A stretch of 64,000 nucleotides of DNA from Magallana gigas (Eukaryota): assembly GCF_963853765.1 (NCBI RefSeq), contig NC_088855.1, forward strand, positions 57,412,001 through 57,476,000, in the 5' to 3' direction. Positions 9,001 through 55,700 of this stretch are shown here, piece after piece (within the stretch, counting starts at the first letter, position 1; the number at the start of each line of letters is the position of its first letter). The position numbers are program-made.

Positions 9001-12000
9001 CCGTGTCCCCACCCCCACCACCAGTATCTGGATTCCCATAAACTTCGCGCGGCCGGTCTCCCGCAGGACCTTCCGGAACTCGGCCCCGTCCAGTGTCTCC
9101 CCCAGAAACACGACCGCCACCTTCTTACGCTGCTCCTGTTGGTCAAAGCTGAGGCGCAGCTTCCGCATCATCCAAGAGAAACTGGGAGAGGTTCCGACCA
9201 ATGACTGCTCCAGGTTTTCCCGATCATGGCCGGAACCGAACGACACGTCAGCCAGACTCTTGGTGGCACAGTCGTTAGTCACCGTACCGACCTCCGACTG
9301 GCTCTGCTGCAGGTCCAGGCGATCCGACACATCGGCGATAAATCGCATGATGAACTTGGAGTTGTCGAGACCAATCGCAGAAGTGTCGAACACTATCTTT
9401 AAGTCCACTGGTATCTTTGGGCCGCAGTCTATAACAGATAACCCCAATCTTGTATAACATGTAATGGTTTAGAGGTGTTAAGCACGCTGATTAGAAGGAT
9501 TTTTATTTGTACTTACGAGCGTTCCCATACAACACCGCGTCCTCGTTGACGGTGGGAGGGGTGGGTGGGGCGGGTGTAGCTGGGGGAACTGAAATATCAG
9601 CCTCAGTTAATTAGCATAAAGATTATCCCCGATACTTAACAAGGTGATCATACAGAGTTGTAAAAAGGAATCTACCTTTGCATGTTCTGACAGCCAGTCG
9701 ATCTTTGATGGACTGAAGTGCGTCAAAGTTGTCTATCTTGAACATAAAATTGTCTGTTGGAGTACTTGCTATAGCCGCAAGTTCTTTTTCGTCTACCTGC
9801 TCAGTAAGTTCATTATCATCAGTATCGTCTTTGCAGCACATATTCTATTTATTCTGTTTATCAATAACAGTCACTATACAATCTCTTTGTCAAACAGCCG
9901 ATCCCAATTGCAAATACATGTAATCAACGCGTATCTGATTATCCTAATTCAAATCCAAAATCCCATATATGAACATCACTGGTTGTCCCATTAACAACAG
10001 TATTACAATGTGTACCTTTTATTTATCTCGATTAAAATCATCCTAATTCAAATTATGCTTGATTGTCTGTCAATCTTCATTACAAACCGTAATCCTTGCC
10101 TAATTAATTTAAATCATAGTTAACATAATCCCTTAACAGGCTACTGATCCCAATCATAAACACTGTATTGCCAATCCGAATCACATACACTGTAATTTAT
10201 TTACCTAATTGCTGATCCAAATCACAAACATTGTAAATTTTTTACTTTATTGCCTATCTCAATTATAAAAATTGTAATTCCTATTCAATTAAGAAATGAA
10301 GATAATAATTTTTCTATTGATCGACGTATCAAAGAAAAAATTGACCGGAAAACTTCATCAATGCGCGTAGCGCATTGATGAAAAAGTTTTCCGGTCAATT
10401 TTTTCTTTGATACGTCGATCAATAGAAAAATTATTATCTTTATTTCTTATCATTTAATAAAACATTTTCAAATAAAAAAATGTGAAGTGTCATTGATCAA
10501 AAATGAAAATAATGTAAATGAAGCGGCGCGTATGAATACAAAACAACAACAGCAACAATATTCAAAATGGATGCGCCTTCAGTTGATGCAGAGCTTATTG
10601 AGCTGAATTTAATGGATTAAACACAAATAGTGAGTTAAAATCTGAACCGGCTGAATTGAAAACGAAAGGAAAATACATGCGATAGCTTGTGATATTATTC
10701 ACTGTGCAGAAAAACTCGTAATAAAACTAGTTTTCATGTGAGATCGCTGGAATATGCAACTGGACATAACCATCCAAGGAAAGGCGATCGTGGACGAAAA
10801 TAGCTGATATGTCGACAAAAAATAGTATGTATAAGCGACTTTTGTAAACGTTGTGGTAACTAGATAGCCAGTGATGTACTTAAATTGTATATCTGCCGCT
10901 TGGAATGCGCCGAAGGAGTTGATGCATTACTCATAGCTTTTCTTTACGACGCTTATATTCTGATGACCGATCATTCACGTGTGTAAATTTAAAAATCATC
11001 GTGAAAGTTTATAGGCCTATATGTTCGTTATAATATTCCTGGAAAAGGAACAGCCAGCCTCGCTGTAAATGTTGATTGATCTCAAGCAGACGAAATCGTG
11101 AGAAGACGCTTAATTTTCTATTTCGTGAATCAAACAATGTGTTTTGTTTATTTTTGAAGGTTAAACTTTCAAGTTTTTATATTCACAAGGTTGCATTTTG
11201 TTTGCTGACAATAAAACAGACACAACTTTACATTTTGTTGACAGTGTTTATCTTTGAAATTCCCGTTCTATAAATAGTGTTAGATCAGAACAGTTGAGAA
11301 AAGTAGATCCGGCAAAAATTTTATTGATGCAGGTATCAAAGAAATTTTTCAACCAATCAGAAGCGTCGATATCTCATCAAACGAATAAATATTAAATGAT
11401 ATTACAAACATCGTGTTTTCTTGGCAGCCGATCCAAATCATAAACACTGTTATCCTTTAACCTGATTGCCAATCACTAACACTGACTGTCATTTTGATCT
11501 TTACCTGATTATCGATCTCAATAACACAATGTGATTCCATTACCCGACCAATCCAAATCACAACCATTTATTTAATTGTTAATCCCAATCACTAACAATA
11601 ATATACCTGAATGTTAATCCCAATCACTGACATTTACCTGATGGTTAATCCCAATCACTAACATTTACTTGATTGTTAATCCCAATCAATAACAATAATA
11701 TACCTGGTTGTTAATTTAATCCCAATCTCTAACATTAACCTGATGGTTAATCCCAATCACTAACATTTACTTGATTGTTAATCCCAATCACTAACATTTA
11801 CCTGATTGTTAATCCCAATCACTAACAATAATACACCTGATTGTTAATCCCACTCACTAACATTAACCTGATTGTTAATCCATTGCTCTATTATTTACCT
11901 GATTGTTAATCCCACTCACTAACATTTACCTGATTGTTAATCCCAATCGCTAACATTAATATACTTGAATGCCGATCCTGATAACAAACATTGTAATCTC

Positions 12001-52700: not shown

Positions 52701-55700
52701 GGAACCCTGTGGCTGCCTTGTAGGAACAGCTGATGGAGTGAGACTTTGTGTTGCTGACAAAGAAACAAAGAAGTCATCCAAGCTGGTCTGGCATCCGAGT
52801 GATGTTAAACACTTGATGTATTAACGGATAAAACTTGCCTGCATATATAAAACATTTGGATACCATGCTTGAATATCGTTAGTGCCTACCTGAAGAATGA
52901 GCCCGGCACTGTGATTTTGCGGTTGGTGACAGCCTTGAACACCCGACTTATGACCTCGTACTCCGCCCCCGACATCTCCTTCTGGAGTTTGTTATCATAC
53001 TTTTCTTGGAGGTCTTCACTAAAATTGAAAATTTCCATCATACTATTTTTTATCAGACAGAATTATAGGATCATATCACAACCATACAGGTTCAAACATT
53101 TAAACAGGAAAGTGAATTAACGATAAAGAAACAGCTTACTCTGATATTCCCAATTCAATGGACATTTCATCATCAATATTAAACAACAGAATACAGAAGT
53201 GATATCGGGTCTGTCCCTGCTTAATTGGAGGGTCCAAACTGATCTGGAAAAAGAAATTCTTACTTAAATCAATATGGAAAAGAAAAAGTTAACTTTTATC
53301 TTATGTAACAGTTTGTTACTAAAGAATCTATATTTGAATGCTCAATGAATACATAAACACATCTATAAAGTGCTAATGATTTATACATGCTATTGACTGT
53401 CATAAAGCTCACCACAAAGAACATCTGTCTGCCGTCTTTGTGGGGCAGTAAAAACAATCGCAGCACTGTGGTGTAGGGGATCTTGTAGTCAAAAGTCTTT
53501 CCGTGAAGTTGTAAAAATGTGTTGTACATTTTAAAGTCATATCGACCTCTGTAATAGAGAAGAACATCAAAAGCATCAGTTCCATAACCGTTACTTCAGA
53601 CAAAAGATTTCTACAGAAAATTTGAAAGATTTTGGTTCCAACAATTTTCCCCCTTTATAAGTTTTTGGTTTTCATAGTGGGACAGATTTACCTTGGAGTG
53701 AAGCATTGAACTTCTGTAAACACAGCAAGTCATAGTGAGACAGATTTACCTTGGAAAGAAGCATTGAACTTCTGTAAACACAGCAAGTCATAGTGAGACA
53801 GATTTACCTTGGAGTGAAGCATTGAACTTCTGTAAACACAGCAAGTCATAGTGGGACAGATTTACCTTGGAGTGAGACATTGGACTTCTGTAAACACAGC
53901 AAGTCATAGTGGGACAGATTTACCTTGGAGTGAAGCATTGGACTTCTGTAAACACAGCAAGTCATAGTGGGACAGATTTACCTTGGAGTGAAGCATTGAA
54001 CTTCTGTAAACACAGCAAGTCATAGTGGGACAGATTTACCTTGGAGTGAAGCATTGGACTTCTGTAAACACAGCAAGTCATAGTGGGACAGATTTACCTT
54101 GGAGTGAGGCATTGGACTTCTGTAAACACAGCAAGTCATAGTGGGACAGATTTACCTTGGAGTGAGACATTGGACTTCTGTAAACACAGCAAGTCATAGT
54201 GGGACAGATTTACCTTGGAGTGAGGCATTGGACTTCTGTAAACACAGCAAGTGCATCACCAGTAGCCTGGATAATATCTGCTTTCTCTAGAACATTGTTG
54301 TAGAACTCCTGGCAAAATAAGTTAATTAGATGGGTAAATAACACCTTTTTTATAGGAACTAGCATGCAATTTTTTTGCTGCTCAGAGCCTCAGATCCATA
54401 CACTTTGGCTGAACGGTTTTTCCATCAAAAGTAAATTTCTTTTTTTACATGTATTTTATCCTTAATAAATTTTAAAACCTGAATCAGACAACAGTTTGAA
54501 ATTGAAATTATTTGTTGTGTGTTATGCTGCTAGAGTGATAATCCTCGACTCAAACAACCTACTTGAACAAGGTCTTTTTCTGTATCTTTGGGGTCGGGGG
54601 GAATGTGGAACCTCAACTCCATCAGCGATACAGCCGCGTCATCATTAGGGTGGAATTCCAGCGTCACTTCCTGTTTGGCGGTAGTTGTGTGAGAGACGTG
54701 GCTGAGGGGAACCTCAAAACCAATCTTGTTGTCAACATCAAACTCCAAGGCATTTCCTACACATTGAATTCATTAAAGTGAGCACAGTTATCACATATCA
54801 TTGTAATCCCAATAGATACAAGAGGAGTCGAATTTGGAGGAGCATTTACAATGTACACATGTCCAAAGATGAGGAGGCTTGACAACAATTTATAAGATCT
54901 ACAAAGCATATACATGTAAAATCATTTAATTTGTCAATGGATAACAGGCAGACCAAAATACACGTAAAACATCTAGTATTATAATATTTCGAAAGGTATT
55001 ATTCTTAAAATTCATGTACAAATAAACACTCATTATTACATGTTTTTGGGAGTTGATTTTAATCAACTCTCCTATGCAGTTACTCTGGCAAACCGAAACT
55101 GAAACAGTGTTTGGACCTGATTGAACAAGACTAGAGTTCATTATTGGTTGGGTCCATACAATTTTTGAAATATTTCGAATACCGATATATAATTTGATGA
55201 AATCAATTCTATTTTTAAATATTACATAACATGATTCATTAAGAGGTTTTCTCGAAATTCTTGTCGGAAAAGTCAAAGAATTCATAATATAAAAATGTGT
55301 GTAATACAAATACAGATTATAAACTACTTGCCAAGCAAATTAACATATCGATGATTTTAAGATAAATCATAATTGATAAAATCAACTCCTGTCAGTACTT
55401 CAGTACTTTGATTATTATTTAGTTTCAAAGGTGCCATTATATTCTTTGGCTAGTTCGCCAACAGTAAACTTGCAACACATGCATGGAGTTCAATGTAGTA
55501 ACTCCTATATCATAAATATCTCAATAATTCTACATCTTATGGTTTATACCTGTAAAATGTGCTATTCCCCAGTTCCAACCTTTCACTGACAAGTCTTTCT
55601 TTTCTAGACTCACCATGTAGTACTTTGAAATGAAGGCTGCTAGTTTTTCAAATTCCTTATAAAGAAAATGAAACAAATAAGTCATGTACTCCAATTGCAA

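What the first reader, a model, noticed from the sequence alone, without database searches (positions are those of the whole stretch)
9860..54251. Window-wide pattern: tandem repeats nucleated at splice junctions in four genes
Seen: seven arrays or duplications copy an exon-intron boundary (11560-12142, 12750-13602, 24930-25435, 41035-41151, 49210-49520, 49850-50603, 53672-54251) and two more begin within ~5 nt of a donor. Units are unrelated to each other (26-80 bp), so this is not one repeat family. In the donor cases the true exon is the 5'-most copy and the rest decay into the intron. Inference: a recurrent mechanism of intron growth, either mutational (R-loops or stalling at splice sites) or selective (only duplications leaving the first donor intact survive), which also supplies raw material for new exons, introns or recursive sites. 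I do not know of this being described as a genome-wide process in bivalves.
Basis: partly seen in the sequence, partly recalled or inferred. Interest (0 to 1): 0.68.

Follow-up and report, generated by a model that had tools for sequence, protein, structure and literature searches.

The report
Splice-junction-anchored tandem repeats in oyster introns
In five neighbouring oyster genes, short stretches that contain or touch a splice site have been copied head-to-tail many times into the adjoining intron; this is a known oddity ('mirage' minisatellites of amphioxus, a few human genes) that is unusually dense here.

Summary
The finding's four genes are on the minus strand: a VWA-domain gene, a calpain, a diflavin reductase and SSRP1. 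Of their 42 donor junctions, 8 have copies of themselves, or an array starting within 5 nt, in the adjoining intron. So does 1 of 42 acceptors. None of 39 exon-interior probes and none of 210 shuffled controls do. A fifth gene, on the plus strand, has an array ending 4 nt before its acceptor.

Unit sequences are unrelated to each other. Transcript-derived or orthologous proteins show that the outermost site is the one spliced. Junction-anchored arrays make up about 22% of the intron DNA in these genes. Their density in donor zones is about 28 times that of the rest of the window (P~1e-8, post hoc).

The architecture is not new. It matches amphioxus 'mirages' and the human F7, 6-16, CBS, LMNB2 and PDGF minisatellites. 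Four literature searches found no bivalve report.

A purifying filter alone cannot create an excess over neutral DNA. A birth bias near donors is therefore the likeliest cause, but it is unproven. The genome-wide claim could not be tested here.

The parts
12760..13605 (-). 27-bp array of about 31 copies. It starts at the donor CAG|GTGAGA of the VWA-gene exon whose last base is 13603. Only CAG is shared with the exon.
   Evidence: TRF (12805-13605, 29.9 copies, 81% matches). Sequence. Pfam VWA profile positions 1-45 then 46-143 in successive exons. In one search, 12 of 31 copies keep the exact 9-mer.
9897..12163 (-). Copies of the last ~21-25 nt of the VWA exon ending at 12143, plus its donor CAG|GTAAAG. 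The main 31-bp array is at 11450-12142. Relics lie at 10146-10269 and 9897-9915, so the copies span the whole 2.3-kb intron.
   Evidence: 21 hits against 0.05 in 100 shuffles..
10270..11426 (.). Unrelated insertion of about 1.16 kb that splits the array above. It holds a palindrome with 71-nt arms (10290-10360 / 10379-10449).
   Evidence: arms 96% complementary. No junction copies lie inside it.
29537..29996 (-). 35-bp x13 array that begins 5 nt after the donor AAG|GTCAGT of calpain exon 6 (last base 29996). The unit has no donor motif.
   Evidence: TRF (95% matches). Sequence. The orthologue P0001 reads ...TEVRK|IKHVRG.
27133..28626 (-). 58-bp x25 array that starts within 0-5 nt of the donor CAG|GTCAGT of calpain exon 9 (last base 28623). 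The unit ends in CAGG, like the exon.
   Evidence: TRF (92% matches). Sequence. P0001 reads ...LTLPEA|DDFDP.
24944..25485 (-). Calpain exon 11 end (about 50 nt) plus donor GGG|GTAGGT, copied 6 times into the 661-nt last intron. The terminal micro-exon starts near 24775.
   Evidence: 80-92% identity; the C. virginica orthologue ends ...FTLEG|PLE, which matches ACCGTTAGAGTGA after the acceptor.
41053..41173 (-). Two-copy duplication (spacing 67 nt) of about 20 nt of exon, the donor CAG|GTAAGT and about 30 nt of intron, in diflavin-reductase exon 6 (last base 41152).
   Evidence: 43/51 identical. P0126 reads ...GLTWTA|GDALGV.
53672..54250 (-). 58-bp x10 array. The first unit is the real end of SSRP1 exon 5 (37 nt of exon plus 21 nt of intron, last exon base 54214). 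The 9 pseudo-junctions are identical at AAG|GTAAAT.
   Evidence: TRF (96% matches).. P0012 reads ...VQCLTPR|GRYDFK.
49865..50607 (-). 26-bp array (14 copies at 50244-50607, older variants down to 49865) that copies the end of SSRP1 exon 11 plus its donor, GACAGCTCAG|GTAA.
   Evidence: family D4 puts 51935-51976 in register with the array.
51937..51973 (-). The true SSRP1 exon 11 junction (last exon base 51964) and the first array unit, cut off from the rest of the array by the inserted element.
   Evidence: P0012 reads ...DDDSDSS|DESYNP.
50604..51936 (.). 1,333-bp element with 39-nt inverted ends, inserted into the array 27 nt downstream of the donor. The array therefore predates the insertion.
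   Evidence: arms 82% complementary.
49204..49451 (-). Five upstream copies of the acceptor junction TTTACAG|GTATGA of SSRP1 exon 13 (first exon base 49203). They include a 28-bp x3 array at 49292-49377.
   Evidence: 5 hits against 0.04 in shuffles. P0012 reads ...VAEE|YDSNPP.
620..896 (+). 30-bp x9.1 array (copies 100% identical) that ends 4 nt before the acceptor AG (895-896) of a small plus-strand gene. This lies outside the finding's coordinates.
   Evidence: P0130 (142 aa, 98% identical) reads ...HQNNTE|STTISP across this intron; the intron part of the probe matches; the exon-only part is not significant (p=0.34).
26167..26383 (-). Contrast: a 107-bp x2 repeat in a calpain intron, about 150 nt from the donor. 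It is not junction-derived.
46548..47810 (-). Contrast: a 157/177-bp array in SSRP1 intron 14, more than 900 nt from either junction. It is not junction-derived.
   Evidence: Exon map.

Best explanation
These are 'mirage'-type minisatellites. At each locus a 26-67-bp segment that overlapped or touched a splice junction was duplicated in tandem. The array then grew and was homogenised by slippage or unequal exchange.

The gene keeps working because the spliceosome uses the outermost site: the 5'-most donor, or the 3'-most acceptor. All other copies therefore become intron. The arrays later decay, and in two cases were split by inserted elements. In this way introns of roughly 150-400 nt grew to 0.6-2.3 kb.

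What is shown: the anatomy, the independence of the loci, use of the outermost site in mRNA-derived proteins, and the local excess at donors. What is inferred: the excess reflects a higher birth rate of tandem duplications next to exon ends, chiefly on the donor side, on top of a purifying filter. The molecular cause of that bias is unknown.
For: Anatomy:
- Exon sequence plus splice site plus intron start is repeated head-to-tail at 5 donors and 1 acceptor. Arrays begin within 5 nt of 3 further donors.

Unbiased scan:
- 8 of 42 donor probes, 1 of 42 acceptor probes, 0 of 39 exon-interior probes and 0 of 210 shuffles have a copy in the adjoining intron.

Independence:
- In 35 of 36 unit pairs the similarity does not exceed shuffles. 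The one exception shares only the donor 10-mer.

Outermost site used:
- P0012 and P0126 are full-length proteins encoded on 2.6-kb and 2.1-kb contigs, so they derive from spliced mRNA. They are 96-100% identical to most of the window's exons (one 86%) and join across every array at the first donor or last acceptor.
- The C. virginica calpain does the same.
- In 7 of 8 donor cases an in-frame stop lies 4-27 nt into the intron, so any pseudo-donor would give a truncated reading frame.

Excess:
- 7 of 10-11 arrays lie at donors, against 1.2-1.8 expected.
- Donor-zone density is 28 times (11 times at the looser cut-off) that of the remaining 44 kb, where outside-gene and deep-intron rates agree: 0.13 and 0.15 per kb.

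Age spread:
- Array identity ranges from 76% to 100%, and one array predates an element insertion. This indicates a continuing process.

Precedent:
- For human F7, PMC1557585 (abstract and passages read) shows experimentally that identical downstream pseudo-donors are functional but silent because the most upstream one is chosen.
- PMC3087553 section 16 (read) reports the same structures at both boundary types in amphioxus.
Against: - All statistics are post hoc, on one window that was flagged because of this pattern, and the counts are small.
- The collapsed introns are short, so a uniform model already predicts 1.3-1.8 donor-associated arrays.
- Three of the eight donor arrays share only 0-4 nt with the exon, and one has no donor motif. 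For these, 'copying the junction' rests on position alone.
- The territory taken as neutral may hold unannotated genes. One array first counted there turned out to abut an acceptor.
- No direct evidence for any mutational mechanism was obtainable.
- The splice pattern for the two VWA junctions rests only on continuity of Pfam profile coordinates.
- Minor use of pseudo-sites cannot be excluded without RNA reads.
Confidence: 0.7

Rival explanations
1. Chance cluster. Tandem duplications arise uniformly along genes, those inside exons or across acceptors are purged, and short ancestral introns make donor overlap common. On this view the window is simply an extreme draw.
For: Collapsing the arrays leaves a mean intron of about 415 nt (18,241 nt over 44 introns), so 1.3-1.8 donor-associated arrays are expected anyway. 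The window was picked for this pattern.
Against: The observed count is 7-8, with P=2.5e-4 to 8e-6. Density in donor zones is 11-28 times that of 44 kb of other sequence, and a filter can only subtract. The same pattern is reported repeatedly in amphioxus genes (PMC3087553, PMC3902484).
Confidence: 0.12
2. Positive selection. Arrays of pseudo-donors are kept because bound U1 snRNP helps splicing of the true site or protects the lengthened intron from premature cleavage and polyadenylation.
For: Most units carry strong donor motifs. All 9 SSRP1 exon-5 copies are identical to the true site.
Against: Donor-core columns are no better conserved than other unit columns: 0.857 v 0.862, 0.889 v 0.809 and 0.863 v 0.872, with mid-range ranks. 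In older arrays many cores are mutated; for example 12 of 31 remain intact. The 35-bp calpain array has no donor motif.
Confidence: 0.08
3. Longer persistence rather than more births. The junction unit is held constant by coding and splice-site selection, and it keeps re-seeding or homogenising its array. Junction arrays therefore stay detectable longer than arrays in free intron DNA.
For: Old, decayed copies (65-80% identical) remain recognisable along whole introns.
Against: Interior copies resemble each other more than the junction unit in 6 of 7 arrays, so the junction unit is not the template for homogenisation. Persistence alone is unlikely to give a 10-30-fold excess.
Confidence: 0.08
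4. A dispersed repeat family, a transposon-borne satellite, or an assembly artefact.
For: Oyster genomes are rich in satellites and mobile elements (recalled, not from a call). Two arrays are interrupted by insertions.
Against: Each unit matches its own exon end and no other unit. The copies carry substitutions and indels and were split by later insertions, which assembly errors do not produce. Rfam gave 0 hits.
Confidence: 0.02

Closest known systems
'Mirage' minisatellites of amphioxus (Adh3, globins BflGb6/9, TnC, PGBD5). The term is from Canestro et al. 2002, NAR 30:2871, seen only as a reference entry. They are described in PMC3087553 section 16 (read) and in a passage of PMC3902484.
   Same: - Tandem repeats whose edge unit spans a real exon-intron boundary.
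- Both 5' and 3' boundaries are affected.
- Unit lengths run from tens to about 160 bp and differ between loci.
- Many copies keep AG/GT signals, yet normal mRNA is made.
- Interior units are homogenised while edge units are excluded from this.
- The mechanism is stated to be unclear.
   Different: - The phylum differs: a bivalve mollusc rather than a cephalochordate.
- The density here is quantified: 8 of 42 donors and about 22% of the intron DNA in adjacent genes.
- Three arrays only abut the donor.
- Length and somatic instability, shown for Adh3, could not be tested here.
Human minisatellites whose first monomer spans an exon-intron boundary: F7 IVS7 (37 bp x5-9), interferon-inducible 6-16, CBS IVS13, LAMIN B2 and PDGF intron 4 (PMC1557585, abstract and passages read).
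   Same: - The first unit holds the last exon bases plus the intron start, so identical pseudo-donors follow the real one.
- Only the most upstream site, or the first few, is used.
- F7 copies 4 bp of exon plus 33 bp of intron, much like the 27-bp VWA and 58-bp calpain arrays here.
   Different: - These are isolated loci in a large genome, not clustered in neighbouring genes.
- 5'-to-3' scanning was shown by minigene mutagenesis in mammalian cells. Nothing of that kind is known for oysters.
Intron creation or sliding by tandem duplication of an AGGT-containing segment. Sources: PMC3265369 and PMC2891723 (search listing and start of abstract only); PMC2812944 (passages read); Rogers' model as cited in PMC3087553.
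   Same: A local tandem duplication supplies extra splice signals, and only the outer pair is used.
   Different: Here an existing intron is lengthened and no new intron is made. Exon junctions match the orthologous and transcript proteins exactly.

Membership tests
Mirage / junction-spanning minisatellite | Head-to-tail tandem copies | tested here: met
   TRF, with regular spacing of 58, 26, 27, 31, 35 and 58 nt. The reductase case is a two-copy duplication only.
Mirage / junction-spanning minisatellite | The edge unit spans a genuine exon-intron boundary, holding exon sequence, splice signal and intron sequence | tested here: met
   Met with 10-50 nt of exon at 5 donors and with about 8-14 nt at 1 acceptor. 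At 3 donors and at the fifth gene's acceptor only 0-4 nt (or a non-significant 9 nt) of exon is shared, so those four cases rest on position. Boundaries were verified with P0001, P0012, P0126 and P0130.
Mirage / junction-spanning minisatellite | The authentic (outermost) site is used and the copies stay intronic | tested here: met
   mRNA-derived or orthologous proteins are contiguous across 7 of the 9 junctions in the four genes and across the fifth gene's junction. The two VWA junctions rest on Pfam profile continuity only. Minor isoforms were not testable.
Mirage / junction-spanning minisatellite | Length polymorphism or instability between alleles | not testable with these tools
   Only one haplotype (the window) was available.
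5'-to-3' scanning choice of the first donor (F7 model) | Downstream pseudo-donors are functional when the first is inactivated, but silent otherwise | not testable with these tools
   This needs minigene mutagenesis. Here it is known only that the pseudo-donors equal the true site in sequence and that their use would introduce stops.
Intron gain by tandem duplication (Rogers / Hellsten type) | A new intron lies between duplicated AGGT sites inside a former exon | tested here: not met
   The protein sequence is uninterrupted at each junction relative to the orthologue or transcript. The duplicates lie wholly within pre-existing introns.
Dispersed satellite / transposon-borne array | The same unit occurs at several loci or is tied to element termini | tested here: not met
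   In 35 of 36 unit pairs the similarity does not exceed shuffles. Junction probes hit only their own intron in the whole window, on either strand.
Recursive splice sites | Juxtaposed 3' and 5' splice signals used stepwise in long introns | not tested
   The motif is present: the VWA 27-bp unit reads TCCTCTATCCACCAG|GTGAGA and the SSRP1 acceptor copies read TTTACAG|GTGTGA. There are no RNA data, and the introns are short.

The most novel reading that the evidence does not exclude
Donor-proximal tandem duplication is a genome-wide, mutation-driven mode of intron growth in oysters. It would supply a fifth or more of the intron DNA. It may be shared with amphioxus, another highly polymorphic broadcast spawner, which would point to a DNA-damage or repair process coupled to transcription or splicing at 5' splice sites.
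Probability: 0.25. Interest if true: 0.75.

Novelty: new member of a known kind. Interest (0 to 1): 0.5.

Why it matters
If the local figures hold across the genome, junction-anchored minisatellites would be a major source of intron length in oysters, and one not recognised so far. The local figures are about one donor in five affected and about 22% of the intron DNA.

They would also be a standing supply of cryptic splice sites. Each array offers up to 30 pseudo-donors, and some units carry both acceptor-like and donor-like signals.

An 11-28-fold excess at donors over neutral DNA would imply a mutational process tied to exon ends. That would make the long-unexplained origin of amphioxus 'mirages' and of the human F7-type VNTRs directly testable.

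In practice, such arrays are traps for gene prediction and useful hypervariable markers.

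Tried and rejected
- Selection on pseudo-donors. Per-column conservation in three arrays showed the donor core at mid-range rank, so there is no sign of selection either way. In the fourth array (58 bp) the motif I looked for was not in the consensus.
- Decay gradient. It was significant in 1 of 7 arrays only.
- Shared repeat family. Rejected.
- Non-coding RNA. Rfam at gathering thresholds gave 0 matches in 64 kb.
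- Plus-strand genes. Pfam was run on 111 of 156 plus-strand ORFs of >=52 aa (those up to 44.8 kb) and on all 339 minus-strand ORFs of >=40 aa. On the plus strand it found only a weak GPCR-like ORF. The other 45 plus-strand ORFs were not scanned.
- Fifth gene. The exon-only 20-mer is not significantly repeated in the array (p=0.34), so that case is called 'abutting', not 'copying'.
- Donor/acceptor asymmetry. It was p=0.03 in the four genes but p=0.09-0.11 once the fifth gene is counted, so it is not relied on.
- Literature for bivalves. Searches (0 papers; 4 papers; 18 papers; 15 papers) gave none describing junction-spanning repeats in molluscs. An abalone paper (PMC6905558, passages) reports an intronic 27-bp minisatellite without relating it to a junction.
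- Canestro 2002 (PMC117041) is not held.
- One literature search timed out.
- Supplements were closed. The additional files 4-7 of PMC3087553 (mirage alignments and trees) were not seen.
- No eukaryotic genome or read collection was available, so orthologous introns, polymorphism and genome-wide enrichment stayed unchecked.
Every search used single ORFs or exons, and database proteins were mapped back to the window by tblastn.

Full report
**What the window is.** The window is 64 kb with no N and about 35% G+C.

Pfam scans covered all 339 minus-strand ORFs of >=40 aa and 111 of 156 plus-strand ORFs of >=52 aa. Database proteins were also mapped back to the window by tblastn. Together these give four minus-strand genes:
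- a VWA-domain gene (13769-8881)
- a calpain of the protease-core-plus-domain-III type (32554-24763, 12 exons)
- a diflavin reductase (43303-37326, 13 exons)
- SSRP1 (56485-44409, 17 exons)

The closest named proteins are from oysters. The Crassostrea virginica calpain-B-like protein is 87-100% identical per exon, and the reductase matches an Ostrea edulis 'NADPH oxidoreductase A-like' protein.

Two unnamed proteins, P0012 and P0126, are 96-100% identical to most of the window's exons (one 86%). Each is encoded full-length on a contig of 2.6 or 2.1 kb, while the genes span 12 and 6 kb. They must therefore come from spliced mRNA.

All searches were made exon by exon.

**The observation.** TRF lists 41 rows.

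Five donors have real exon sequence repeated in the intron together with the donor and the intron start:
- SSRP1 exon 5: 37 nt of exon plus 21 nt of intron, 9 extra copies, 91-100% identical.
- Calpain exon 11: about 50 nt of exon, 6 copies.
- Reductase exon 6: about 20 nt of exon, 1 copy.
- VWA exon ending at 12143: about 21-25 nt of exon, 21 copies against 0.05 in shuffles.
- SSRP1 exon 11: 10-14 nt of exon, 15-17 copies.

Three further arrays start 0-5 nt from a donor and share 0-4 nt with the exon. They are the VWA exon ending at 13603, calpain exon 9 and calpain exon 6.

One acceptor, that of SSRP1 exon 13, has five upstream copies.

An unbiased scan used 40-nt probes from every mapped junction. 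It recovers exactly this set: 8 of 42 donors and 1 of 42 acceptors. It finds 0 of 39 exon interiors and 0 of 210 shuffles. Units are unrelated in 35 of 36 pairs.

**Corrections and additions.**
- The 26-bp SSRP1 array is 1.36 kb from its exon. This is because a 1,333-bp element with 39-nt inverted ends inserted 27 nt after the donor.
- The 31-bp VWA array is likewise split by a 1.16-kb insertion. Its relics reach the far end of the intron.
- Without those insertions, both introns consist almost wholly of junction copies.
- 'Decay into the intron' holds for 1 of 7 arrays. Elsewhere the interior copies are homogenised and the junction unit is the outlier. The same is reported for amphioxus (PMC3087553, section 16).
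- Outside the finding's coordinates there is a small plus-strand gene, matched by P0130 at 98% identity. It has a 30-bp x9 array that ends 4 nt before its acceptor.

**Which site is spliced.** P0012, P0126, P0001 and P0130 are contiguous across each array at the outermost site. The joins read CLTPR|GRYD, DSDSS|DESY, VAEE|YDSN, TWTA|GDAL, EVRK|IKHV, LPEA|DDFD, TLEG|PLE and NNTE|STTI.

The two VWA junctions rest on continuity of Pfam profile coordinates: 1-45, then 46-143, then 141-173.

In 7 of 8 donor cases the exon frame meets a stop 4-27 nt into the intron. Any pseudo-donor would therefore truncate the reading frame.

**More than chance?** The 44 mapped introns hold 24,573 nt. Arrays make up 28% of this, and junction-anchored arrays 22%.
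- Placing the 11 arrays with TRF score >=100 at random in the introns predicts 1.3-1.8 at donors. Seven are seen (P=2.5e-4 to 3.6e-5; the four-gene version is).
- The remaining 44 kb holds 5 arrays, or 0.11 per kb. The outside-gene and deep-intron rates agree.
- Donor zones, about 2.2 kb in total, hold 7 arrays. This is a 28-fold excess (P=1e-8). With all TRF loci of score >=50 the excess is 11-fold (P=4e-6).
- Acceptor zones hold 2, an 8-fold excess (P=0.03).
- The donor/acceptor difference (8 v 2) is not significant (p=0.09-0.11).

These tests are post hoc, on a window chosen for the pattern.

**Mechanism.** A filter that only removes harmful duplications cannot raise density above that of neutral DNA. 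Something must add arrays near exon ends.

Selection for the pseudo-donors finds no support. Their core columns are as variable as the rest of the unit, and one array has no donor motif at all.

The junction lies anywhere within the unit, with an exon share of 0 to about 0.75 of the unit length. The founding duplications therefore covered the junction rather than starting at the GT.

I infer a regional birth bias for short tandem duplications at exon ends. This would be followed by ordinary array dynamics and by a filter that tolerates donor-side copies. The tolerance arises because the first donor is chosen, as shown experimentally for human F7 (PMC1557585, abstract and passages read). The cause of the bias is not known. 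Candidates are transcription- or splicing-linked damage, nucleosome edges and recombination.

**What is known.**
- The architecture is published as 'mirages' in amphioxus Adh3, globin, TnC and PGBD5 genes (PMC3087553 section 16; a passage of PMC3902484). [quoted passage not shown]
- It is also published as junction-spanning minisatellites in human F7, 6-16, CBS, LAMIN B2 and PDGF (PMC1557585).
- Four searches aimed at bivalves or molluscs found no such report.

**Verdict.** This is a new member of a known kind, in a new phylum, at a density not quantified before. The genome-wide claim remains open.

Noticed in passing
window 56186-56226 and 54567-54607: An exact 41-nt copy of the end of SSRP1 exon 4 lies in intron 1, 1.6 kb upstream. 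It stops 5 nt short of the donor. It is a dispersed copy, not a tandem one.
   Followed up: partly
window 50604-51936: A 1,333-bp element with 39-nt terminal inverted repeats (82% complementary) sits inside an SSRP1 intron. It holds a second inverted pair at 51566-51602 / 51751-51787. It is probably a non-autonomous DNA transposon.
   Followed up: partly
window 10290-10449: A near-perfect palindrome (71-nt arms, 96%, 18-nt loop) lies inside the 1.16-kb insertion in the VWA-gene intron.
   Followed up: no
window 29531-30085 (-): The 35-bp calpain array has no stop codon in any minus-strand frame. The exon frame stays open for 468 nt into the intron, which could mislead gene predictors.
   Followed up: partly
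window 53672-54250 (-): Each 58-bp SSRP1 unit carries an acceptor-like TTTACAG|AAG as well as the donor AAG|GTAAAT. This outlines ten potential 22-nt pseudo-exons.
   Followed up: no
window 15321-16355: A 166-bp x6.2 array (87% matches) lies between the VWA gene and the calpain gene. It is satellite-like and not near any mapped junction.
   Followed up: no
window 46426-47810: A 157/177-bp array in SSRP1 intron 14 is flanked by 83-nt and 41-nt direct repeats about 410-420 nt apart. AT-rich 15-mer arrays lie next to it at 45513-46242.
   Followed up: no
window 3853-4800 (+): A 316-aa open frame has weak serpentine-receptor (7TM GPCR) Pfam matches (E=2.8e-5). It is probably a single-exon receptor gene.
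   Followed up: no
window 8022-8400 (+): This is the apparent start of a small plus-strand gene: ATG, a signal-peptide-like stretch, then the donor CAG|GTATGT. It converges on the 3' end of the VWA gene. The 49-bp x9.6 array at 7099-7570 lies about 450 nt upstream of it.
   Followed up: no
window 1020-1030 and 1520-1530 (+): Two successive exons of the small plus-strand gene end in near-identical TCG|GTGGGT donors.
   Followed up: no
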